From a virus (lineage: Duplodnaviria > Heunggongvirae > Uroviricota > Caudoviricetes), in the IMG/VR virus record IMGVR_UViG_2537561991_000021: 44,504 nucleotides of DNA; one strand, written 5' to 3'. The translations under genes were made by a program, and so were the position numbers. Positions 3,816-40,980 of the stretch are shown piece by piece. Every line of letters begins with the position of its first letter. The first letter of the stretch is position 1. The notes below the pieces were generated by a model. The model had not been told where the DNA came from. It was given only the letters and a program-made list of their open reading frames with translations, and did not search any database.

Positions 3816-5011
3816 GACTCCACCGTTATAACGATATTTTCCGGGGTACAGGACGCAGATTCGTTGTATCTGATATCAATGTTTGATGACGACAAAGCCC
3901 CCGGAGATTTCCCAATCGTCAGTTCCTGAATATCGTAATAGCGTGCATTCCCGCCACTCACCACGCCAAGATTCGCCGGTGAGTAAATGCGACTTAAAAG
4001 GACCGAATCACCAATCATCAGACTATTGATATAGTCGGAAATAGCCTGCTGGATCTGCTGCCCTATCTGTGAGGTATAACCCGTAAAAACTTTTAATTTA
4101 ATCCGGGCATAAACAGGCACATCACTGGAACGCGAGAATTTGATTACATGGGGATTGCCGTATTTATCCGGAACCGTAACGGATGTTGTACCGTGAGTGG
4201 CTGTCCCCTGGCCTTTATTCCCTCTGATAGCCTGAGCAATATCCATCACATCACCGCCATCCACAATTACAGCAACAGAGTGTGGCGGTAACCCGTTACC
4301 GTCCTCCGAACCAGTATCGTTTTCATAGAGTTTGTGGCGGGTTACACCGGTAACATTAGAAACAGCACCATCCAGTGCTTCAAATGGGGTTATTGATGGC
4401 AACGCAACACTTTGCGACTGGCGGATACGTAACTCCGCATCAGTTTCTGCCGGAGAGCCAACAGTAGCCGCAGCAGGATTAGTTACCGAAACCCAGCCAC
4501 GGGTTGGCGTATTAATTTCAGTGATAGTTCCAGCCAGCGCCGCCACTGCACCACTGACGGAACATGTTGCGGTCGCCATCACTGTACCATCCACGCCGAC
4601 CACCACTGAAGCAGGCAAACGCCATATCACACTATTACTGTCTTTCACGCTGCCATTAATGATGGTTGTTCCGGCAGTTCCTGTAAGAAGCAAATCAACC
4701 GTAGAATTCGTCGCGCCTTTACGTGAAATACCATTTATTTTCACGTTACTGGTCAGTGCGGCCCCATAGCCGGTTGCCGGTGAAAAACAGTTGTAGACAG
4801 TTATCGCAGTATTATTGGCATCATGAATCGCCAGCGCCATCAGAGCCACCATCTGGCCGTCTTTACTATCCGGTTCGAGGTAGGCATCACTGCCATAAAT
4901 CTGCTGAAAATAGCTAATCAGGGTGCTGAGTATCGTCTGATAATCAGGCGCACTGATCCCCTCCGCGGTTACCTTTGCAGATAAACCGAGAGAATCAAGG
5001 TTCAGAGCCAT
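3812..5011 (-). CDS. baseplate J-like protein (P2 gpJ / Mu gp47-like)
   Basis: 399 aa; size and position in a baseplate cluster; translationally coupled to neighbours. Confidence 0.7.
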   Translation of the reverse strand: MALNLDSLGLSAKVTAEGISAPDYQTILSTLISYFQQIYGSDAYLEPDSKDGQMVALMALAIHDANNTAITVYNCFSPATGYGAALTSNVKINGISRKGATNSTVDLLLTGTAGTTIINGSVKDSNSVIWRLPASVVVGVDGTVMATATCSVSGAVAALAGTITEINTPTRGWVSVTNPAAATVGSPAETDAELRIRQSQSVALPSITPFEALDGAVSNVTGVTRHKLYENDTGSEDGNGLPPHSVAVIVDGGDVMDIAQAIRGNKGQGTATHGTTSVTVPDKYGNPHVIKFSRSSDVPVYARIKLKVFTGYTSQIGQQIQQAISDYINSLMIGDSVLLSRIYSPANLGVVSGGNARYYDIQELTIGKSPGALSSSNIDIRYNESASCTPENIVITVES

Positions 5012-32102: not shown

Positions 32103-32174
32103 GGTAAGCGTACAGCCTGAACCGTCTGGTCAGAATCTGACGAATTAGACAAAGTGGTGTCCACCAAATAAGTA

Positions 32175-32576
32175 GTGGGAACCAAAGTATCAGATATGCA
32201 GAAAAATGTGACTCCCGGCAGGCGAAAAGGCTGCCCTAATTATCCTCCCGAATTTAAACAGCAGCTCGTTGCTGCCTCCTGTGAACCCGGGATATCCATC
32301 TCAAAACTTGCTCTTGAAAATGGCATTAACGCCAATCTGTTGTTCAAATGGCGACAACAATGGCGCGAGGGAAAGCTGCTATTACCTTCTTCAGAGAGCC
32401 CCCAGCTACTTCCTGTGACTCTCGATGCAGCTGCCGAACAGCCAGAATCGCTCGCAGAGGACCCGGAAACCCTCAGTATCAGCTGTGAGGTAACGTTCCG
32501 GCACGGGACGCTCCGCTTCAATGGCAATGTCAGCGAAAAGCTCCTGACTCTGCTGATACAGGAACTGAAGCGATGA
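32175..32576 (+). CDS. IS66-family orfA (short form)
   Basis: 133 aa; GINANLLFKWRQQWREGKLL region shared with the longer orfA-like proteins. Confidence 0.75.
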   Translation: MGTKVSDMQKNVTPGRRKGCPNYPPEFKQQLVAASCEPGISISKLALENGINANLLFKWRQQWREGKLLLPSSESPQLLPVTLDAAAEQPESLAEDPETLSISCEVTFRHGTLRFNGNVSEKLLTLLIQELKR

Positions 32577-32920
32577 TCCCGTTACCTTCCGGGACCAAAA
32601 TTTGGCTGGTTGCCGGTATCACCGATATGAGAAATGGCTTCAACGGCCTGGCTGCGAAAGTACAAACGGCGCTGAAAGACGATCCCATGTCCGGCCATGT
32701 TTTCATTTTCCGGGGCCGCAGCGGCAGTCAGGTTAAACTGCTGTGGTCCACCGGTGACGGACTGTGCCTCCTGACCAAACGGCTGGAGCGTGGGCGCTTC
32801 GCCTGGCCGTCAGCCCGTGATGGCAAAGTGTTCCTTACGCAGGCGCAGCTGGCGATGCTGCTGGAAGGTATCGACTGGCGACAGCCTAAGCGGCTGCTGA
32901 CCTCCCTGACCATGCTGTAA
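32573..32920 (+). CDS. IS66 Orf2-like accessory protein (TnpB)
   Basis: 115 aa, clearly related to the orfB at 33672..34019. Confidence 0.8.
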   Translation: MIPLPSGTKIWLVAGITDMRNGFNGLAAKVQTALKDDPMSGHVFIFRGRSGSQVKLLWSTGDGLCLLTKRLERGRFAWPSARDGKVFLTQAQLAMLLEGIDWRQPKRLLTSLTML

Positions 32921-32994
32921 ATCTCTTTATCCTGGTTGTCAGTAACCGGCTCATTTAAACCGTCTGGTCTGTTTCCTCCGGCTCTACAAAAATA

Positions 32995-33672
32995 ATGTCC
33001 ATCATTTTTAATGGACACTATCGTATGAAACACCGGACCTGGATCACTGAAGCTTTACGTCTTCACTTTGAAGAACATTTACCCCGGGTTGTGGCCGGGC
33101 GTCGCCTGGGTGTACCAAAATCAACAGTTTGTAGTATGTTCGTGCGCTTTCGGAGAGCTGGCCTTTCGTGGCCTTTGCCCGCAGGCATGTCGGAGCAGGA
33201 ACTTGATGCCTGCCTTTACGGACAATTTTCCACGGTACCAGTCGTACGTCCTGAAAGCACCGTTATATCCGAAGCCCCCGTGGTAAAAAAACGTCCCCGG
33301 CGGCCCAACTTCCCTTATGAGTTTAAAATCGCCTTAGTGGAGCAGTCACTGCAGCCCGGAGCCTGTGTGGCGCAGATCGCCCGGGAAAACGGAATCAACG
33401 ATAACCTGCTCTTCAACTGGCGCCATCAATACCGGAAAGGTGGCCTGCTGCCTTCCGGAAAAAATATGCCGGCACTGCTTCCCGTGACGTTAACGCCGGA
33501 GCCGGATAATAAAATCCCGGCCCCCGCACAGGAACCAGAGCAGATAAATACACCGTCCGACAGTCTGTGTTGTGAGCTGGTTCTGCCGGCCGGAACTCTC
33601 AGGCTTAAAGGTAAACTGACGCCGGCGTTATTACAGACACTTATCCGCGAAATAAAAGGGAGCAGCCACTGA
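32995..33672 (+). CDS. IS66-family orfA-like protein with N-terminal HTH
   Basis: 225 aa, about 97% identical to 1387..2064. Confidence 0.8.
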   Translation: MSIIFNGHYRMKHRTWITEALRLHFEEHLPRVVAGRRLGVPKSTVCSMFVRFRRAGLSWPLPAGMSEQELDACLYGQFSTVPVVRPESTVISEAPVVKKRPRRPNFPYEFKIALVEQSLQPGACVAQIARENGINDNLLFNWRHQYRKGGLLPSGKNMPALLPVTLTPEPDNKIPAPAQEPEQINTPSDSLCCELVLPAGTLRLKGKLTPALLQTLIREIKGSSH

Positions 33673-34019
33673 TGATATCTCTCCCTGCAGGTTCGCGTAT
33701 CTGGCTGGTTGCAGGTATCACCGATATGCGAAATGGCTTTAACGGCCTGGCATCAAAAGTTCAGAACGTCCTGAAGGATGACCCGTTCTCCGGACACCTG
33801 TTCATCTTCCGCGGACGCCGGGGTGACCAGATAAAAGTGTTGTGGGCTGACAGTGACGGACTGTGCCTCTTCACCAAACGCCTGGAGCGGGGCCGCTTCG
33901 TCTGGCCAGTCACCCGTGACGGCAAGGTGCACCTTACTCCGGCTCAGTTATCCATGCTTCTTGAAGGTATCAACTGGAAGCACCCGAAACGAACGGAACG
34001 CGCTGGAATCCGCATATAA
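33672..34019 (+). CDS. IS66 Orf2-like accessory protein (TnpB)
   Basis: 115 aa, identical to 1040..1387. Confidence 0.85.
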   Translation: MISLPAGSRIWLVAGITDMRNGFNGLASKVQNVLKDDPFSGHLFIFRGRRGDQIKVLWADSDGLCLFTKRLERGRFVWPVTRDGKVHLTPAQLSMLLEGINWKHPKRTERAGIRI

Positions 34020-34038
34020 CCCGTTGTAAAGTGAGGAT

Positions 34039-35610
34039 ATGGACACCTCACTTGCTCATGAGAACGCCCGCCTGCGGGCACTGTTGCAGACGCAACAGGA
34101 CACCATCCGCCAGATGGCTGAATACAACCGCCTGCTCTCACAGCGGGTGGCGGCTTATGCTTCCGAAATCAACCGGCTGAAGGCGCTGGTTGCGAAACTG
34201 CAACGTATGCAGTTCGGTAAAAGCTCAGAAAAACTTCGTGCAAAAACCGAACGGCAGATACAGGAAGCACAGGAGCGAATCAGCGCACTTCAGGAAGAAA
34301 TGGCGGAAACGCTGGGTGAGCAATATGACCCGGTACTGCCATCCGCCCTGCGCCAGTCTTCAGCCCGTAAACCGTTACCGGCCTCACTTCCCCGTGAAAC
34401 CCGGGTTATCCGGCCGGAAGAGGAATGCTGTCCTGCCTGTGGTGGTGAACTCAGTTCTCTGGGATGTGATGTGTCAGAGCAACTGGAGCTTATCAGCAGC
34501 GCCTTTAAGGTTATCGAAACACAACGTCCGAAACAGGCCTGTTGCCGGTGCGACCATATCGTGCAGGCACCAGTACCTTCAAAACCCATTGCACGCAGTT
34601 ATGCCGGAGCGGGGCTTCTGGCCCATGTTGTCACCGGGAAATATGCAGACCATCTGCCGTTATACCGCCAGTCAGAAATATACCGTCGTCAGGGAGTGGA
34701 GCTGAGCCGTGCCACACTGGGGCGCTGGACAGGTGCTGTTGCTGAACTGCTGGAGCCGCTGTATGACGTCCTGCGCCAGTATGTGCTGATGCCCGGTAAA
34801 GTCCATGCTGATGATATCCCCGTCCCGGTCCAGGAGCCGGGCAGCGGTAAAACCCGGACAGCCCGGCTGTGGGTCTACGTCCGTGATGACCGTAACGCCG
34901 GTTCACAGATGCCCCCGGCGGTCTGGTTCGCGTACAGTCCGGACCGGAAAGGTATCCATCCACAAAATCACCTGGCCGGTTACAGCGGTGTGCTTCAGGC
35001 CGATGCTTACGGTGGTTACCGGGCGTTATACGAATCCGGCAGAATAACGGAAGTCGCGTGTATGGCTCATGCCCGGAGAAAAATCCACGATGTGCATGCA
35101 AGAGCGCCCACCTACATCACCACGGAAGCCCTGCAGCGTATCGGTGAACTGTATGCCATCGAGGCAGAGGTCCGGGGCTGTTCAGCAGAACAGCGTCTGG
35201 CGGCAAGAAAAGCCAGAGCCGCGCCACTGATGCAGTCACTGTATGACTGGATACAGCAACAGATGAAAACACTGTCGCGTCACTCAGATACGGCAAAAGC
35301 GTTCGCATACCTGCTGAAACAGTGGGATGCACTGAACGTGTACTGCAGTAATGGCTGGGTGGAAATCGACAACAACATCGCAGAGAACGCCTTACGGGGA
35401 GTGGCCGTAGGCCGGAAAAACTGGATGTTCGCGGGTTCCGACAGCGGTGGTGAACATGCGGCGGTGTTGTACTCGCTGATCGGCACATGCCGTCTGAACA
35501 ATGTGGAGCCAGAAAAGTGGCTGCGTTACGTCATTGAACATATCCAGGACTGGCCGGCAAACCGGGTACGCGATCTGTTGCCCTGGAAAGTTGATCTGAG
35601 CTCTCAGTAA
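34039..35610 (+). CDS. IS66-family transposase TnpC
   Basis: 523 aa with leucine-zipper-like N-terminus and CPACGG...CxxC zinc motif; right inverted repeat 30 bp downstream. Confidence 0.85.
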
Positions 35611-35641
35611 ATATCAATACGGTTCTGACGAGTCGCTTACT

Positions 35642-35836
35642 CCCTATGCAGGGTGCTATGTAAACGCCGTTATCGATATCTGGGCACAGGACAATAATTT
35701 CGGTAAACGCATTAATGCCTCACTCGGCGGAGTCCAGTTCCTGCGAGACGGCGATGCATTCGCTGGCGGCGGAGTGGCAAGCGCTGACGATTTCGACGAT
35801 ATCAGCGAAGGTGCTGATGCTGAAGCACTAATTTAA
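35642..35836 (+). pseudogene. putative ssDNA-binding protein, 3' part
   Basis: In-frame continuation after the IS, ending in an acidic tail (ADDFDDISEGADAEALI) typical of SSB C-termini. Confidence 0.6.
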
Positions 35837-35888
35837 CCCTACTTCATAGACGCCCGGTTAAACACCGGGCTACTGATTAGGCGTATAA

Positions 35889-36518
35889 TCACTCAGGAAT
35901 CTTAATCTTTCTCAATTCTTTATTTAGTTCACAGTTCTTTTTCTTAGACGGGAAAGTATCATACATCCAAAAACCAACAGTCTCTAAAACTATTATCATA
36001 ACCATATACACAAGATAATTTAAAAGGCCTTCATTTTGCCCTATGGAAATAATGCAGATAATAGAAAAAAGGGTAAACAGCACAAAACACAGAAAGGAAA
36101 ACAGACGACTAATAATAAATAAAAAACCTGAAAAATCAACATTAATAAAAAACACTCCGTTATCTTTCTCTATATAATTCTGAAGCTTAATCAACTGATT
36201 TATATACTGTCTTTTTTCTAATCTATTGCAAATGTAAATAACATCTCTTCGGTTATAAGATGATTGCAATTTCAGCGCATCACGAATAATTTTATCATTT
36301 ATTCTTTTTTCTATGGCACTCTTATCCTCCTCATCCAGATAACGTTCATACTTAACTAAATATAAAATTAACTTCTTAACATATTTAGGCTCTTTATACT
36401 TATAATTAAAAATGATCTTTCTTATCCAGACTCCCATAACAATCAAACATGAAAAAATATATCCAGCTATTTTCTCCAGATGCTCTGTATGGTCAATCAA
36501 GTATTGGATCATATGCAT
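35889..36518 (-). CDS. AT-rich hypothetical membrane protein, antisense to the early operon
   Basis: 209 aa, Lys/Ile/Tyr/Asn-rich, with hydrophobic helices (IFSCLIVMGVWI, FLFIISRLFSFLCFVLFTLFSIICIISI, YLVYMVMIIVLETVGFWMY); GC far below flanking phage genes. Confidence 0.65.
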   Translation of the reverse strand: MHMIQYLIDHTEHLEKIAGYIFSCLIVMGVWIRKIIFNYKYKEPKYVKKLILYLVKYERYLDEEDKSAIEKRINDKIIRDALKLQSSYNRRDVIYICNRLEKRQYINQLIKLQNYIEKDNGVFFINVDFSGFLFIISRLFSFLCFVLFTLFSIICIISIGQNEGLLNYLVYMVMIIVLETVGFWMYDTFPSKKKNCELNKELRKIKIPE

Positions 36519-36564
36519 AATTAATCTTTTAATCAGTTAATAGAATAAAAACCAAGGTAAACAC

Positions 36565-38628
36565 ATGTCCAATATACTATGGGGCGACCTGGAAACCTAT
36601 TGCGAAATCCCTATTACGAACGGTACCCATGCGTATGCCGAAGGCGTTGAAGTGATGCTTTTCGCATGGGCTATCAACGACGGGCCAGTAAACGTGTGGG
36701 ATATCACTGCCGGTGGTGGTATTCCACACGGCTTATACGAAGCAATCGCAGACCCTGAAACCCTGCTTTATTTCCATAACTCTCACTTCGACCGCACCGT
36801 TCTGCGTTATGCAATGCCGCGCCTGGCACCGCCAGTCGAACGTTGGCGCGACACAATGGTGCAGGCGCTGGCGCACGGTCTCCCGGGGTCTCTGGGGGAA
36901 CTCTGCGAAGTACTAGGCGTCCCGCAAGACAAAGCGAAGGACAAAGAAGGTAAAGCGCTGATCCAGCTGTTCTGTAAGCCACGCCCGAAAAACAGCAAAC
37001 TGCGCCGGGCCACCAGCAAAACCCACCCGGAAGAATGGCGGCGCTTTGTTGCTTACGCCGGACTGGATATCGAGGCAATGCGCGAAGTCTATAAACGTCT
37101 GCCGAAGTGGAATTATCAGGGGACAGAACTGGCGCTCTGGCATCGTGATCAGCAGATCAATGACCGGGGCGTCTGCATGGACGTGGAACTCGCACGCGCT
37201 GCGATCGACGCGGTAGACCAGGAACAAAAGCGCCTGGCAAAGCGTACACAGGAAATGACTGATGGCGAAGTGCAGGCAGCCACACAACGAGACGCGTTGA
37301 TTAAGCACATTGTTGAATCCTACGGTGTGGAGCTACCAGACATGCAACGCAGTACTCTGGAACGTCGTATTGCCGACCCCGATTTACCATCTGCCGTGAA
37401 AGAACTGCTGGCTATCCGCCTGCAGGCCAGTACTACCAGCACCAGTAAATACAAGGCACTGATGAAAGGCGTAAGCCACGACGGGCGCTTACGCGGTACG
37501 CTACAGTTCTGCGGGGCGTCACGTACCGGTCGTTGGGCCGGACGGCTATTCCAGCCCCAGAACCTTCCCCGCCCTTCACTAAAACAGGAACAAATAGACG
37601 AAGGCATCGAAGCACTGAAAGCCGGATGTGCAGACCTGCTGTTTGACAATATCATGGAACTAACCAGTTCAGCGTTACGTGGCTGCATTATCGCGCCAAC
37701 AGGCAAAAAGCTGGTGGTAAGTGACTTGTCGAACATTGAAGGCCGTATGCTGGCATGGCTGGCGGGAGAAGAATGGAAACTGAATGCATTCAGAGAGTAC
37801 GACGCCGGAACGGGTCCGGACTTATATAAACTGGCGTATGCAAAAGCTTTCGATATTGCACCAGATGATGTTGATAAACACATGCGTCAGATCGGTAAAG
37901 TCATGGAACTCGGTCTGGGTTATGGTGGTGGTGTGTCGGCCTTCATCACTTTTGCACTGGTTTACGGTCTCGATCTCGACGAGCTGGCGAACGCCGCACT
38001 ACCAAACATTCCCCGCGATGTTATCCGCGAGGCGAAAAGCTGGTACGACGAATCGGTTAAACGCAAGTCAACCTACGGGCTTTCTGAACGGGTATTTATC
38101 GCCTGCGACTCACTTAAACGTCTCTGGCGCCGGGCGCATCCCGCGACCTGTGATTTCTGGTACGAACTGGAGCGCACCGTCCGCACTGCAATCGCCACAC
38201 CGCAAAAAACATTGTATTGCGGTTATCTTAAAATCCGCCGCGATGGCGCGTGGCTGCGCATACAGCTACCATCCGGACGCGCTGTATGCTACCCGTCTCC
38301 GGTTATCGAAAAAGGGAATATCACCTACATGGGGGTTAACTCTTATTCGCGTAAATGGCAACGACTCAAAACCTACGGCGGAAAGCTGGTGGAGAACATC
38401 ACCCAGGCGGCCGCCCGCGACATTCTGGCCGGAAACATGCCGCTTATCGAAGATGCCGGTTACAGCATTGTGCTGACGGTACACGACGAGGTGATCACCG
38501 AAGCACCTGACACAGAAGATTTCAACGATAAAGCGCTTTCCGCGCTTCTCTCCACTGACCCCGAATGGGCGCCCGATATCCCACTGAACGCTGGCGGTTT
38601 TGAGGCGTACCACTACAAAAAAGATTGA
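36565..38628 (+). CDS. family A DNA polymerase with 3'-5' exonuclease domain
   Basis: Exonuclease motifs [23 protein letters not shown]; polymerase motif A DLSNIEGR, motif [17 protein letters not shown], motif C VHDEV. Confidence 0.9.
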
Positions 38629-38692: not shown

Positions 38693-39454
38693 ATGCAGGA
38701 ACTAACTGAAATGCCGATCACCTATCCATACCCGAGAGAAACTTTTCCTGACTTTTTGAGGGAGTGTGGGTTCACCAATTTTTCCCACGAACAGCGTGAG
38801 ACTTGTGACTGCTATCGTTTAACGAATGGCGTAATTGTTAACCTTTACACCACCCGGACCATTCAGTTTCAAGGTAACCCTCAAGAACGTCCCAATGTTG
38901 AAACTGCAATAATGACCCATTTAGGAACGCCGCCCACGGCAACACCACTAGCCGTAGAACAGCCATCTGAGCTCCCCAAAAAGATATTCATTGTTCACGG
39001 CCATGACCATACTGCAAAGGAGCAACTTGAGCTAATCCTTCATAAACTTGGATTACCAGACCATTTCATTTTGCAGAATACGGGAGGGACTGGACTCACC
39101 ATTATTGAAGAGCTTGAACGTGAAATTGGGCAAGGACAAACTGCTACCCGTTTCGGGATTGTTCTTTTGACACCTGATGATATGGGATACTCAAAGCGCG
39201 CCGGTGAAGCAGAAATCCAACCCCGCGCAAGACAGAACGTTGTACTCGAGATGGGTATGCTTCTTTCGTCCTTAGGGCGCAGCAATGTAGCAATCCTTCA
39301 GAAACAGCACCTAGAACAGCCTTCTGATGCTAACGGGATTTTGTATCTGAATTTCAACGACCATGTACGTGAAACAGTTCCTCGTCTAGTGCAACGGTTA
39401 CAAAATTCTGGTTTCGAATTTACACAAGCTCAAATAGCTAACGCTTCCTCGTAA
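38693..39454 (+). CDS. TIR-like domain protein (predicted nucleotide-binding TIR-like fold) with a unique N-terminal domain
   Basis: 253 aa; C-terminal region KIFIVHGHDH...GIVLLTPDDMG...ARQNVVLEMGMLLSSLGRSNVAILQ...PSDANGILYL matches the recalled consensus of the TIR-like nucleotide-binding family. Lower GC than neighbours; own RBS and terminator. Confidence 0.6.
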   Translation: MQELTEMPITYPYPRETFPDFLRECGFTNFSHEQRETCDCYRLTNGVIVNLYTTRTIQFQGNPQERPNVETAIMTHLGTPPTATPLAVEQPSELPKKIFIVHGHDHTAKEQLELILHKLGLPDHFILQNTGGTGLTIIEELEREIGQGQTATRFGIVLLTPDDMGYSKRAGEAEIQPRARQNVVLEMGMLLSSLGRSNVAILQKQHLEQPSDANGILYLNFNDHVRETVPRLVQRLQNSGFEFTQAQIANASS

Positions 39455-39517: not shown

Positions 39518-39652
39518 ATGTCATTTAAATACCGGGACAGTCCGCTTTATTACCGGACTGTGCGGGAGGCTTTGCACCTTGAACAGTCCGGCGGGTACGA
39601 CCGGGCGATGCAGGTCTGGGCCAAAGCGAACGTCGGTTTGATTTTTGTCTGA
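39518..39652 (+). CDS. small hypothetical protein (44 aa)
   Basis: ATG ORF MSFKYRDSPLYYRTVREALHLEQSGGYDRAMQVWAKANVGLIFV between the terminator and the zinc-finger gene; below the ORF-track cutoff. Confidence 0.3.
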   Translation: MSFKYRDSPLYYRTVREALHLEQSGGYDRAMQVWAKANVGLIFV

Positions 39653-39688
39653 TGCAGAACATGCGCGAAAAGCGTAAGGAGGTGGACG

Positions 39689-39883
39689 ATGTCTAATATC
39701 GATAATAAGGGTTGGGGGTTCCCCGCTCTGTCAAAAAAAGCACATTTCTTTAATTCGGGGGAAGCCATATCACTATGCGGAAAATGGATGTTCATAGGTA
39801 TCAGGATTGATGAATGGCATGACCATCCTGAGAACTGCGCTATCTGCATGAAGAAACGCAAAAAGCAGGAAGGCGAAAGCTAA
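39689..39883 (+). CDS. small zinc-finger-like protein
   Basis: 64 aa with a strong AAGGAGG RBS; Cys/His cluster (C...HDHPENCAIC); stop overlaps the VRR-NUC start (TAATG). Confidence 0.55.
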   Translation: MSNIDNKGWGFPALSKKAHFFNSGEAISLCGKWMFIGIRIDEWHDHPENCAICMKKRKKQEGES

Positions 39884-40182: not shown

Positions 40183-40980
40183 TTAATCCGTATTTTTAAC
40201 ACGTATTTCGAAACACCCTTTTAATTTAGCTATTTCCTTTTTAGAGGACATGATTGTGAATCTCATCCCTTTTAAATCATTAACAAATTCAAATTTTGCG
40301 CTATTTGACTCACAATCACCAACAACAAAACCACTACCAAATGAATTGAGCAACACTTTAGTATTACTACCATCTACCATATAATATTCGTTATTTTTAA
40401 ATGCAGTAACCTTCCCGAATGTATAGCTCAATATCAACAACGTTATCACCCCTAAAGGAAAAGCTGACTTTAGGATTTTTAAATCGATATAATAAAATAC
40501 GTTCTTATACTCTGCAAGCCTCCCAAATTTTCTAATGCTCTCCATATGATGTTCGTGTCTCTTACTATGGATTGGCATGGACACCACATTGTGATAATTC
40601 AACAAAAGCATAGCAAATAATAAAATATCCTGAACACTCATCACAGAAGTTTCGGAGAAATAACCAAAAGGCCAATGAAATCCTATTATACAAATATTAG
40701 CCATTAGCATAACAACTATAAATACAATAAATGGAACATAATATTTCCCTTTCAAATCAAACATCAACGCCGCATATAAGGCGCCGAGAAATAAAAAACT
40801 AAAAAACAAAAGCCACACAGCCGAATACAATAGCGTATTTAAGTCTATTTTAATAAAAAGGTCTGGATAGCCATAATACGATGCAACACCTTTCTGAAAA
40901 GAATATGCCATCGCATAAGCTAACGCTGAAAACATAGTTAATAAAGAAACTTGCTTTGTAAATATTTTCGCCAGGGGCAT
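40183..40980 (-). CDS. AT-rich polytopic membrane protein with C-terminal soluble domain, antisense to the early operon
   Basis: 265 aa; strong GGAGG RBS; five or more hydrophobic helices in the N-terminal 150 aa and a soluble C-terminal domain of about 110 aa; very low GC. Confidence 0.65.
   Translation of the reverse strand: MPLAKIFTKQVSLLTMFSALAYAMAYSFQKGVASYYGYPDLFIKIDLNTLLYSAVWLLFFSFLFLGALYAALMFDLKGKYYVPFIVFIVVMLMANICIIGFHWPFGYFSETSVMSVQDILLFAMLLLNYHNVVSMPIHSKRHEHHMESIRKFGRLAEYKNVFYYIDLKILKSAFPLGVITLLILSYTFGKVTAFKNNEYYMVDGSNTKVLLNSFGSGFVVGDCESNSAKFEFVNDLKGMRFTIMSSKKEIAKLKGCFEIRVKNTD

What the first reader, a model, noticed from the sequence alone, without database searches (positions are those of the whole stretch)
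35837..36564. Second antisense AT-rich membrane-protein gene between the SSB-like gene and the DNA polymerase
The ORF at 35889..36518 (209 aa) is on the minus strand inside the plus-strand replisome operon. It is extremely AT-rich and encodes hydrophobic helices flanking a charged, predicted coiled-coil region. It sits immediately beside the IS-disrupted SSB-like gene. Like the 40183..40980 gene, it looks like independently acquired lysogen-expressed cargo.
Basis: partly seen in the sequence, partly recalled or inferred. Interest (0 to 1): 0.6.

Follow-up and report, generated by a model that had tools for sequence, protein, structure and literature searches.

The report
Orphan membrane-protein cargo gene in prophage
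The antisense AT-rich ORF is a real, intact gene for a three-helix inner-membrane protein of a rare, uncharacterised family that travels as swappable cargo between hotspots of several enterobacterial prophages; it probably helps the lysogen fend off other phages, but that is not shown.

Summary
35889..36518(-) is an intact 209-codon ORF with 29% GC, against about 53% in the flanks. It lies between the IS66-disrupted DUF2815/Enc34 SSB-like gene and the family-A DNA polymerase gene.

It is a genuine protein. A profile search found 36 divergent full-length relatives, all in Enterobacterales. They belong to PHROG 10579 (function unknown) and have no Pfam, NCBIfam or PADLOC family. AlphaFold2 run with the family alignment gives pLDDT 87. 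The predicted layout is N-out TM1, a roughly 90-aa cytoplasmic helical domain with a beta-hairpin, a TM2-TM3 hairpin, and a basic cytoplasmic tail with a conserved motif. No solved or viral structure matches.

The slot is a cargo hotspot. It is empty in 19 of 74 related phage contigs, holds this family in 16, and holds other cargo elsewhere, including a SIR2-like candidate defence gene. Relatives of the protein also sit in the P2 orf30 slot, antisense in lambdoid early regions, beside antiterminator Q, and in a conjugative element. They are AT-rich in every context.

So "independently acquired cargo" is supported. Expression in the lysogen and any function are untested. The best inference is a stand-alone membrane protein for phage exclusion or abortive infection, analogous to lambda SieB but not homologous to it. 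Interest is moderate.

The parts
35889..36518 (-). CDS for a 209-aa inner-membrane protein of PHROG 10579. Predicted layout: N-terminus outside; TM1 at about 17-37; cytoplasmic helical domain with a beta-hairpin at about 45-125; TM2 at about 129-160; a 5-aa periplasmic loop; TM3 at about 166-188; and a basic cytoplasmic tail at 189-209 carrying the motif P-x-x-K-x-x-x-[IL]-N-x-x-L-x-K-[IV].
35871..36556 (.). The AT-rich exchangeable cassette (about 686 nt, one gene). Homology with relatives that carry other cargo breaks just after the hairpin on the left and about 8 nt before the polA ATG on the right.
35852..35870 (.). GC-rich hairpin (GCCCGGT-TAAAC-ACCGGGC) between the convergent DUF2815 gene and the ORF. 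It is retained from the backbone. In empty slots it is followed by TTTT; here no T-run follows on either strand.
   Evidence: z = -3.0
36519..36564 (.). 46-nt divergent spacer between the ORF start and the polA start. It holds the ORF's 5' leader, a -10-like TATTCT (36542-36547, minus strand) and the polA ribosome-binding site.
36566..36579 (-). Candidate antisense promoter elements inside polA codons 1-5: a -35-like TGGACA (36566-36571) and a -10-like TATATT (36571-36576). The polA codons ATA CTA co-occur with an abutting antisense gene in 46 of 49 loci, and in 0 of 31 loci without one.
   Evidence: consensus-level matches and a correlation only
35641..35836 (+). 3' remnant of the DUF2815/Enc34 ssDNA-binding gene; the left neighbour of the slot.
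32104..35640 (+). IS66-family insertion that splits the DUF2815 gene: a truncated orfA-TnpB unit followed by a complete orfA-TnpB-TnpC unit. Ends read GTAAGCG; the 8-bp target duplication is TCCCTATG.
36565..38628 (+). Family-A DNA polymerase gene; the right neighbour of the slot.

Best explanation
The ORF is a single-gene, horizontally exchanged accessory cassette (a 'moron') of an E. coli prophage of the vB_EcoM-606R2 / IAI1-yfhL type. It encodes a 3-TM inner-membrane protein of a rare, fast-evolving, Enterobacterales-restricted family (PHROG 10579).

Shown:
- The gene is real and under purifying selection.
- It occupies a polymorphic hotspot between the SSB-like gene and the polymerase gene.
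- It needs no partner gene.
- The family moves between hotspots of unrelated temperate phages and a conjugative element.
- Its conserved parts (the helical domain and the C-terminal motif) are predicted to face the cytoplasm.

Inferred:
- Because it is antisense to the repressed early operon, it is transcribed from its own promoter, which overlaps the polA start, while the prophage is dormant.
- The protein then acts at the inner membrane against superinfecting phages.
- The most likely mode resembles SieB or RexB. The cytoplasmic domain would sense an infection cue, and the TM hairpin (with a conserved intramembrane Glu179 in this subfamily) would oligomerise to disturb membrane integrity or block a membrane-dependent step of infection.
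- Blocking genome entry, as Imm and SieA do, is the alternative mode.
For: Real gene:
- P(209 stop-free codons) is about 3e-9.
- There are 36 full-length relatives among 1.84e9 representatives, with collinear motifs.
- dN/dS is 0.27-0.83 for the 209-aa alleles and 0.32 for the 199-aa alleles.
- AlphaFold2 pLDDT rises from 56 without an alignment to 87 with it.

Cargo in a hotspot:
- Slot length ranges from 79 to 2559 nt. Of 74 contigs, 19 are empty and 16 hold this family. Others hold Nmad5, BRO-N, Ant, SIR2_2/PDC-S25, DUF4145, SPFH, or other small antisense membrane proteins.
- The ORF is in 67 of 159 E. coli genomes with the polA flank.
- Cassette dS is 0.55 against polA dS of 0.064 in the same pair, which indicates allele exchange.

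Autonomous and mobile:
- Relatives lie in the P2 orf30 slot (PMC3091744 describes that slot as a site of horizontally acquired genes), antisense in lambdoid early-left regions, beside antiterminator Q next to an HD-domain gene and a methylase, beside TraG_N, and in a Xenorhabdus island with HicA and Tad2-like genes.
- Members have 28-40% GC against 42-56% in their flanks.

Not the phage's own lysis gene: holin, endolysin and Rz lie after Q.

Topology: K+R counts are 1 (N-terminus), 20 (loop), 0 (short loop) and 7 (tail).

Positional precedent: lambda sieB is also a membrane-protein gene antisense within an early operon.
Against: - There is no experimental or homology-based link to any defence or exclusion protein. 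Pfam, NCBIfam and PADLOC give nothing for the window protein, and only stray weak hits for 1-3 of 32 members.
- hhalign against lambda SieB and RexB gives probabilities of 0.3% and 1.3%.
- Promoter evidence is at consensus level and no better than in shuffles (5 found, 3.1 expected). No canonical terminator was found.
- The family is rare: 3 of 50,697 phage records, 0 plasmids, and 1 of about 185,000 species genomes by pattern scan.
- Copies are occasionally inactivated, so any benefit is conditional.
- Guilt by association with hotspots does not distinguish defence from other lysogenic-conversion functions.
Confidence: 0.45

Rival explanations
1. It is a lysogenic-conversion or host-fitness factor unrelated to phage defence. 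For example, it could be a membrane protein that alters envelope physiology, stress tolerance, or sensitivity to bacteriocins or contact-dependent toxins. An orphan immunity protein against pore-forming colicins or membrane-targeting effectors is one version; such proteins are also small, AT-rich, 3-4-TM and often encoded antisense.
For: The same cargo and hotspot evidence applies. The protein is small, stand-alone and has three TM helices. Nothing ties it specifically to phages.
Against: No member matches any colicin-immunity or other immunity family in Pfam. The most conserved parts are a 90-aa cytoplasmic domain and a cytoplasmic tail, rather than intramembrane or periplasmic surfaces. Carriage is almost exclusively on temperate phages.
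Confidence: 0.2
2. It serves the phage's own lytic cycle. It might anchor the replication complex to the membrane (like phi29 p16.7 or p1), time lysis, or exclude the phage's own kin after induction.
For: It sits between the SSB-like and polymerase genes in at least six very divergent branches of the family. The layout (N-out, C-in, three TM helices) resembles a class I holin with a large loop inserted.
Against: It is antisense to the replication operon. It is absent from the slot in most close relatives, which keep 98-99% identical polymerases. Family members occur in tail, early-left, Q-proximal and ICE contexts with no polymerase nearby. The phage has its own holin, endolysin and Rz. No holin family is hit.
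Confidence: 0.1
3. It is a selfish or near-neutral passenger: an AT-rich gene that persists through recombination at a hotspot, or a mildly toxic membrane protein kept silent (for example by H-NS), with no adaptive role for phage or host.
For: The family is rare and narrowly distributed. dN/dS is relaxed in the 209-aa alleles, up to 0.83, though this rests on few substitutions. There is a premature stop in DEC5B and there are truncated clusters.
Against: All 29 representatives retrieved by sequence are about 190-260 aa, with conserved motifs retained at 14-20% identity. dN/dS is 0.32 across a dS of 0.55. The gene is intact even in this prophage, which has an IS-disrupted replication gene.
Confidence: 0.15
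4. It is not a gene at all, but a chance ORF in an AT-rich intergenic spacer or a regulatory or RNA element.
For: There is no convincing Shine-Dalgarno sequence before the first ATG. The region is AT-rich.
Against: Chance probability is about 3e-9. Divergent full-length homologues exist. The AlphaFold2 model with the alignment is confident. dN/dS is below 1. There is no Rfam match at E<=1.
Confidence: 0.01

Closest known systems
Lambda / P22 SieB (Pfam PF14163), a prophage-encoded abortive-infection membrane protein
   Same: It is a gene of about 185-210 codons for a membrane-anchored protein with a cytoplasmic domain. It lies antisense inside an early operon of a temperate phage: lambda sieB at 34482..35036 is on the plus strand between ral and N, which are on the other strand. 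It is a stand-alone gene. Two family members (P0043, P0045) sit antisense in lambdoid early-left regions, a similar kind of position.
   Different: No sequence relationship: the Pfam SieB model hits lambda SieB at 1e-29 but none of the 32 family members, and hhalign probability is 0.3%. The layout also differs. In lambda SieB the hydrophobic stretches lie in the N-terminal half ahead of a polar C-terminal half (my reading of the translation), whereas here the order is TM1, soluble domain, TM2-TM3, tail.
Lambda RexB (PF15968), the membrane component of the RexAB abortive-infection system
   Same: It is a small prophage-expressed polytopic inner-membrane protein thought to collapse membrane potential on infection.
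   Different: RexB (144 aa) is described from prior knowledge as having four TM helices and needing the sensor RexA. Here there are three TM helices, a built-in 90-aa cytoplasmic domain and no partner gene. hhalign probability is 1.3%.
P2 Orf30, a nonessential antisense gene between S and V
   Same: It is an antisense, AT-rich, nonessential gene whose 261-aa product has hydrophobic, membrane-like stretches, in a slot known for horizontally acquired genes (PMC3091744). The Rahnella homologue P0020 (38% identical to the window protein) occupies exactly this S|V slot.
   Different: It is not homologous (hhalign probability 0.7%). Its function is also unknown, so the comparison gives no mechanism.
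Superinfection-exclusion injection blockers (T4 Imm, P22 SieA, HK97 gp15)
   Same: They are small inner-membrane proteins encoded by phages that protect the infected cell or lysogen from secondary infection (from established knowledge).
   Different: Those proteins are smaller or lack a conserved cytoplasmic domain. No family hit was found here. Here conservation is concentrated on the cytoplasmic side.
2TM / SLATT-type membrane effectors of CBASS and Pycsar
   Same: They have a TM hairpin plus a helical cytoplasmic part and are predicted to permeabilise the membrane. A TIR-like PF10137 gene (PDC-S35) lies two genes away.
   Different: No SLATT Pfam hit was found. Only 1 of 32 members weakly hits a PADLOC '2TM effector' model (E 0.0015). 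Presence of the TIR-like gene and of this family are uncoupled across loci. No cyclase is present.

Membership tests
PHROG 10579 (phage protein family of unknown function) | A significant match to the family profile over its full length | tested here: met
   E 3.5e-107, residues 28-209 against profile positions 1-182 of 182. 29 of 32 divergent relatives also match. The profile lacks TM1, but residues 1-27 are conserved in homologues at 38-42% identity, so the long form is the real protein.
Moron (accessory gene unit inserted between genes that are adjacent in related phages) | Present or absent between two genes that are adjacent in close relatives | tested here: met
   DUF2815 and polA are separated by only 79-90 nt in 19 of 74 related contigs. 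The ORF is in 67 of 159 E. coli genomes that have the flank.
Moron | Base composition distinct from the surrounding phage genes | tested here: met
   GC is 0.289 against 0.533 in the flanks. The same holds for relatives in ten other loci.
Moron | Its own promoter and terminator, giving transcription independent of the surrounding operon | tested here: inconclusive
   The antisense orientation requires a separate promoter. Only consensus-level candidates were found: TGGACA-18-TATTCT, and TATATT inside polA codons 3-4. The number of promoter-like sites in the region is no higher than in shuffles. A hairpin follows the stop codon (z -3.0) but has no T-run.
Moron | Expressed from the repressed prophage | not testable with these tools
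   No transcript data are available here.
SieB superinfection-exclusion family (PF14163) | A match to the SieB profile | tested here: not met
   No Pfam hit at E<=0.1 for the window protein and none at E<=0.01 for 32 relatives. The positive control, lambda SieB, scores 1e-29. hhalign probability is 0.3%.
RexB (PF15968) | A match to the RexB profile, and a partner gene rexA | tested here: not met
   No Pfam hit. hhalign probability is 1.3%. The cassette holds a single gene.
Known or candidate anti-phage defence proteins in PADLOC-DB v2 | A match to any of the 5027 models | tested here: not met
   0 hits for the window protein. Isolated weak hits occur in 1 of 32 members each (PDC-S47 4e-4; 2TM effector 1.5e-3).
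Holins | A match to a holin family, and a position in the lysis cassette | tested here: not met
   No holin family appears in the Pfam or PHROG results. The phage's holin, endolysin and Rz lie downstream of Q, about 9 kb away.
Any protein of solved structure, or any predicted viral structure | Fold similarity beyond generic helical hairpins | tested here: not met

The most novel reading that the evidence does not exclude
PHROG 10579 may be a previously unrecognised family of stand-alone, membrane-embedded anti-phage proteins (exclusion or abortive infection) with a fold that has no solved relative. In this prophage lineage, it and several unrelated small antisense genes would be swapped as cassettes at a fixed 'expression site'. 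The -10 element of that site (TATATT) would be written into the first codons of the DNA polymerase gene through the rare codons ATA and CTA. The polymerase gene would then double as the promoter for whatever defence cargo lands next to it.
Probability: 0.25. Interest if true: 0.6.

Novelty: new member of a known kind. Interest (0 to 1): 0.4.

Why it matters
If the inferred role is right, this adds a new single-gene, membrane-based phage-exclusion family to the prophage defence repertoire of E. coli, Klebsiella, Salmonella and relatives. Current tools (PADLOC, Pfam) do not see it and its fold has no structural precedent.

It also marks the SSB|polymerase junction of this prophage lineage as a defence and accessory hotspot, comparable to the P2 orf30, Z and TO regions. 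That is useful for mining further cargo: a SIR2-like PDC-S25 gene, a DUF4145 protein, an SPFH lipoprotein and several small membrane proteins share the slot.

If the role is wrong, the gene remains an ordinary prophage ORFan of unknown function.

Tried and rejected
- Pfam, NCBIfam and PADLOC scans of the protein and of 32 relatives found no family.
- PDB sequence and profile searches found nothing.
- AlphaFold2 without an alignment gave an unusable model, pLDDT 56.
- The word-indexed homologue search found only 3 near-identical clusters. The family emerged only after a 199-aa protein in the same slot was recognised as a distant relative (hhalign 76%, E 2e-5, full length) and a joint profile was searched.
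- Homology to the other antisense membrane ORF of the window (40183..40980), P2 Orf30, the 183-aa antisense slot protein, lambda SieB and lambda RexB was rejected in every case.
- A functional link to the nearby TIR-like PDC-S35 gene was rejected, because the two occur independently.
- A role as a replisome component was rejected, because relatives occur in non-replication contexts.
- Known RNA families: no Rfam match.
- Literature searches on accessions, phage names and PDC-S35 returned no papers. A search on DUF2815/DUF2800/prophage returned 25 papers; none of the 15 listed concerned this gene.
- Locus scans: alignment A3 was too divergent for a pattern scan. The A4 scan of genome contigs found one locus. 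tblastn found 3 phage records and no plasmid.
Full report
**1. The observation**

The minus-strand ORF 35889..36518 (209 aa, ATG start) exists as described. Its GC content is 0.289. The 500-nt window 36001-36500 is the most AT-rich of the whole 44.5-kb sequence (GC 0.284), while the neighbouring windows are at 0.51-0.56.

This is not a chance ORF. With the cassette's base composition a codon is a stop with probability 0.089, so 209 open codons have probability about 3e-9. In 2000 shuffles the longest open run was 151 codons, against 215 observed.

Hydropathy analysis gives three hydrophobic segments, at about 17-37, 129-160 and 166-188, around a charged stretch of about 90 residues.

The left neighbour is the 3' end of a DUF2815 / Enc34 ssDNA-binding gene (35641..35836). 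Comparison with the uninterrupted prophage of E. coli IAI1 shows that this gene is split by a 3,537-bp insertion (32104..35640). The insertion has GTAAGCG termini and an 8-bp target duplication, TCCCTATG. It consists of a truncated IS66 unit (orfA-TnpB) followed by a complete IS66 unit (orfA-TnpB-TnpC).

The right neighbour, divergent and only 46 nt away, is a family-A DNA polymerase gene.

**2. Genomic setting**

The window is an E. coli prophage integrated next to yfhL. It is nearly identical to the IAI1 prophage and to 'Escherichia phage vB_EcoM-606R2'. The early rightward operon reads as follows:

- DUF2800 nuclease
- DUF2815 SSB-like gene
- [this ORF, antisense]
- polA
- TIR-like protein (PF10137; PADLOC candidate PDC-S35)
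- ANR
- a small ORF
- VRR-NUC
- [second antisense membrane ORF, 40183..40980]
- SNF2 helicase

The phage has an ordinary holin-endolysin-Rz cassette downstream of Q.

**3. The slot is a cargo hotspot**

Among 5,426 complete E. coli genomes, 159 carry the polA flank and 67 carry the ORF. It is always single-copy and chromosomal. I located the DUF2815 end and the polA start in 74 IMG/VR contigs whose polymerase is 87-100% identical. The slot there is 79-2559 nt long. Its contents are:

| Slot content | Contigs (of 74) |
|---|---|
| Empty | 19 |
| This protein family, always antisense and abutting polA | 16 |
| Unrelated 183-aa antisense protein with N-terminal TM | 9 |
| Nmad5 gene, alone or with an antisense 89-aa 2-TM or 229-aa soluble protein | 18 |
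| BRO-N/Ant genes together with the 199-aa form of the family (these 5 contigs are also counted in the family row) | 5 |
| SIR2_2 protein matching candidate defence family PDC-S25 (E 4e-158) | 2 |
| SPFH lipoprotein | 2 |
| DUF4145 protein | 1 |
| Small antisense ORFs of 61 or 71 aa | 7 |

The empty state is a hairpin followed by TTTT, then two copies of TTTGCAAAG. In the window, the backbone hairpin (35852..35870) is retained and the cassette starts right after it. Homology with other slot types resumes about 8 nt before the polA ATG. The cassette is therefore about 686 nt and holds one gene.

**4. The protein family**

The fast homologue search found only near-identical sequences.

A 199-aa protein at the same antisense position in other E. 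coli prophages has the same layout: TM1, a charged domain, two TM helices and a basic tail. It aligns end to end with the window protein in a profile comparison (probability 76%, E 2e-5).

A joint profile searched against 1.84 billion representative proteins returned 36 proteins at E<1e-3. Apart from a few short fragments, all are 190-260 aa and aligned over nearly their whole length.

The 32-sequence alignment has only 21% mean column identity but keeps collinear motifs:

- Y-x-x-Y-L-[SD]-x-E-[DE]-K
- R-x-x-[LI]-I-Y-[IV]-x-N-R
- an FF[IL] strand
- the TM2-TM3 hairpin
- P-x-x-K-x-x-x-[IL]-N-x-x-L-x-K-[IV]-D in the tail

Of the 32 members, 29 match PHROG 10579, whose function is unknown. None has a credible Pfam or PADLOC family, and the window protein and the 199-aa slot relative have no NCBIfam family.

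Named members come from Escherichia, Klebsiella, Enterobacter, Salmonella, Rahnella, Rouxiella, Pantoea/Erwiniaceae and Xenorhabdus. All are labelled 'hypothetical'.

The family is rare. It occurs in 3 of 50,697 phage records, in no plasmid at BLAST sensitivity, and in one locus among about 185,000 species-representative genomes by pattern scan.

**5. Evolution**

Alleles of the 209-aa form differ by up to 13 nucleotides and 7 amino acids. dN/dS is 0.27-0.83, based on few changes, against 0.05-0.10 for polA in the same pairs.

Two 199-aa alleles give dN/dS 0.32 at dS 0.55, while their flanking polymerases have dS of only 0.064. The gene is therefore under purifying but relaxed selection. The cassette is much older than its flanks, which means alleles are exchanged by recombination between conserved flanks.

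One genome (O55:H7 DEC5B) has a premature stop after codon 62.

**6. Where else the family sits**

Five other divergent branches (P0004, P0022, P0031, P0033 and P0038; 14-20% identical to the window protein) sit antisense between Enc34_ssDNA-bd and DNA_pol_A, 20-46 nt from the polA start.

Other members sit elsewhere:

- **P2-like prophage:** the Rahnella protein P0020 (38% identical) lies between gpS and gpV. This is the orf30 slot, one of three P2 regions known for horizontally acquired genes (PMC3091744).
- **Lambdoid early-left regions:** P0043 and P0045 are antisense there, near Dam/Ead and near Kil/anti-RecBCD genes respectively.
- **Near antiterminator Q:** P0028 lies just upstream of Q, beside an HD-domain gene, a methylase and an HNH gene.
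- **Conjugative context:** P0018 (42% identical) lies near TraG_N.
- **Xenorhabdus island:** P0027 sits with HicA, a Tad2-like gene and tail remnants.

Across these loci the gene has 28-40% GC against 42-56% in the flanks.

So the protein works without the polymerase, the SSB-like gene or any fixed partner. It behaves as mobile cargo of temperate elements.

**7. Structure and topology**

AlphaFold2 without an alignment was poor (pLDDT 56). With the family alignment it is confident (pLDDT 87.3, pTM 0.63). The model contains:

- helix 11-40 (TM1)
- helices 45-56, 63-82, 90-99 and 103-111
- a beta-hairpin at 116-125
- helices 132-160 and 165-188 (TM2 and TM3)
- a terminal helix at 192-203

The charged middle is thus a compact domain, not a long coiled coil.

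Lys+Arg counts are 1 in the N-terminus, 20 in the long loop, 0 in the 5-residue loop and 7 in the tail. By the positive-inside rule this places the N-terminus and the short loop in the periplasm, and the domain and tail in the cytoplasm. That is where the conserved motifs lie.

A glutamate inside TM3 (E179) is invariant in the window protein and its two closest relatives, and is present in further members of that subfamily.

**8. Expression signals**

Because the gene is antisense to the early operon, it needs its own promoter, and only 46 nt separate the two start codons.

The consensus scan proposes TGGACA (36571-36566, overlapping the polA ATG), an 18-nt spacer, then TATTCT. The number of promoter-like sites in the region is not above the shuffled expectation.

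One observation was made in passing. Where an antisense gene abuts polA, polA codons 4-6 read ATA CTA TGG, which uses two rare codons. This holds in 46 of 49 such loci, spanning seven unrelated antisense genes. It holds in 0 of 31 loci with an empty slot or only plus-strand cargo, which mostly read ATT CTC TGG. On the minus strand this spells TATATT, 32-52 nt upstream of the cassette start codon.

This could be a fixed antisense -10 element embedded in the polymerase gene. It could equally be simple linkage of the recombination junction. It is untested, and the matching -35 is poor.

The hairpin after the stop codon is stable (-20.4 kcal/mol, z -3.0) but has no T-run. No Rfam family matches the region.

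**9. What it most likely does**

Shown:

- It is a real, selected, stand-alone gene for an inner-membrane protein.
- It is carried as exchangeable AT-rich cargo in the hotspots of several kinds of temperate elements.
- In this lineage it shares its slot with candidate defence genes.

Inferred:

- It is expressed from the dormant prophage.
- It acts at the inner membrane against incoming phages.

Conservation is cytoplasmic and the periplasmic exposure is minimal. I therefore favour an abortive-infection or post-entry exclusion mechanism of the SieB/RexB type over a pure injection block. In that mechanism, the cytoplasmic domain and tail would sense an infection cue and the TM hairpin would oligomerise.

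The positional precedent is lambda sieB, a membrane-protein gene that also lies antisense inside an early operon. There is no homology, however. hhalign gives 0.3% for SieB, 1.3% for RexB and 0.7% for P2 Orf30. The other antisense membrane ORF of the window is also unrelated.

I put the defence/exclusion reading at about 0.45. The remainder is split among another lysogenic-conversion or immunity role, a function in the phage's own cycle, and a near-neutral passenger.

**10. Novelty and verdict**

This is a new, uncharacterised member of a well-known kind of feature: a prophage moron encoding a small membrane protein. The family is already clustered in PHROGs as 'unknown' and is annotated 'hypothetical' in RefSeq. 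No paper in the searchable library mentions it.

'Lysogen-expressed' and any function remain to be tested.

What this analysis adds:

- the definition of the divergent family, with its conserved motifs and a confident structure model that has no known fold relative;
- the demonstration that the SSB|polymerase junction is a cargo hotspot;
- the codon/promoter correlation at the polA start.

Interest is moderate, at 0.4.

Noticed in passing
window 36574-36582 (polA codons 4-6); loci L002-L098: polA codons 4-6 read ATA CTA TGG (two rare codons) in 46 of 49 loci where an antisense gene abuts polA, spanning seven unrelated antisense gene families. They read this way in 0 of 31 loci with an empty slot or only plus-strand cargo. 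On the minus strand this spells a -10-like TATATT, 32-52 nt upstream of the cassette ATG. It may be a fixed antisense expression site inside the polymerase gene, or it may be junction linkage.
   Followed up: partly
window 38693-39454 (+): This is a 253-aa TIR-like protein (PF10137, CAP12/Pycsar-effector TIR, E 3e-31). It matches the PADLOC candidate defence family PDC-S35 at E 7e-109. It sits on the same strand as the replication operon, directly after polA, and is absent from some relatives.
   Followed up: partly
window 40183-40980 (-): This is a second antisense AT-rich ORF (265 aa, GC 0.33, several hydrophobic segments) between the VRR-NUC and SNF2 helicase genes. It has no significant Pfam, PADLOC or PHROG match (best PHROG E 0.029). 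It is not homologous to the 209-aa family or to P2 Orf30. In vB_EcoM-606R2 this slot holds two plus-strand hypothetical genes instead.
   Followed up: partly
window 32104-35640: The insertion that splits the DUF2815 gene is composite. A truncated IS66 unit (HTH_Tnp_1 orfA at 32175-32576 and TnpB at 32573-32920) is followed by a complete orfA-TnpB-TnpC unit. The termini read GTAAGCG and the target duplication is TCCCTATG. Every E. coli match to a query that started 30 nt inside the element began only at its right end, so this junction was not seen in the 5,426 complete genomes.
   Followed up: yes
L059, L065 and other empty-slot loci, about 3912-4000: The empty DUF2815|polA spacer is a terminator-like hairpin (CACCCGGC-CATG-CGCCGGGTG followed by TTTT) and then two copies of TTTGCAAAG before the polA ribosome-binding site. 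It may be a regulated attenuator or a binding site within the replication operon.
   Followed up: no
L064 / L070, slot between DUF2815 and polA: In some relatives the same slot carries a 500-aa AT-rich SIR2_2 protein. It matches the PADLOC candidate family PDC-S25 (E 4e-158) and, more weakly, ThsA.
   Followed up: partly
L117 1553-2182 (E. coli O55:H7 DEC5B): In this genome the copy of the 209-aa ORF has a premature stop after codon 62 and is left unannotated. Truncated clusters (158 and 116 aa) also exist in the protein collection.
   Followed up: yes
window 39518-39700 (+): The ANR-family regulator gene between the TIR-like gene and VRR-NUC is annotated as frameshifted in the identical IAI1 prophage. 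It was not examined in the window.
   Followed up: no
residue E179 of the 209-aa protein (window about 35982-35984): A glutamate inside predicted TM3 is invariant in the window protein and its two closest relatives and recurs in further members of that subfamily, but it is absent from the 199-aa branch. A charged intramembrane residue hints at ion conduction or helix-helix assembly.
   Followed up: no
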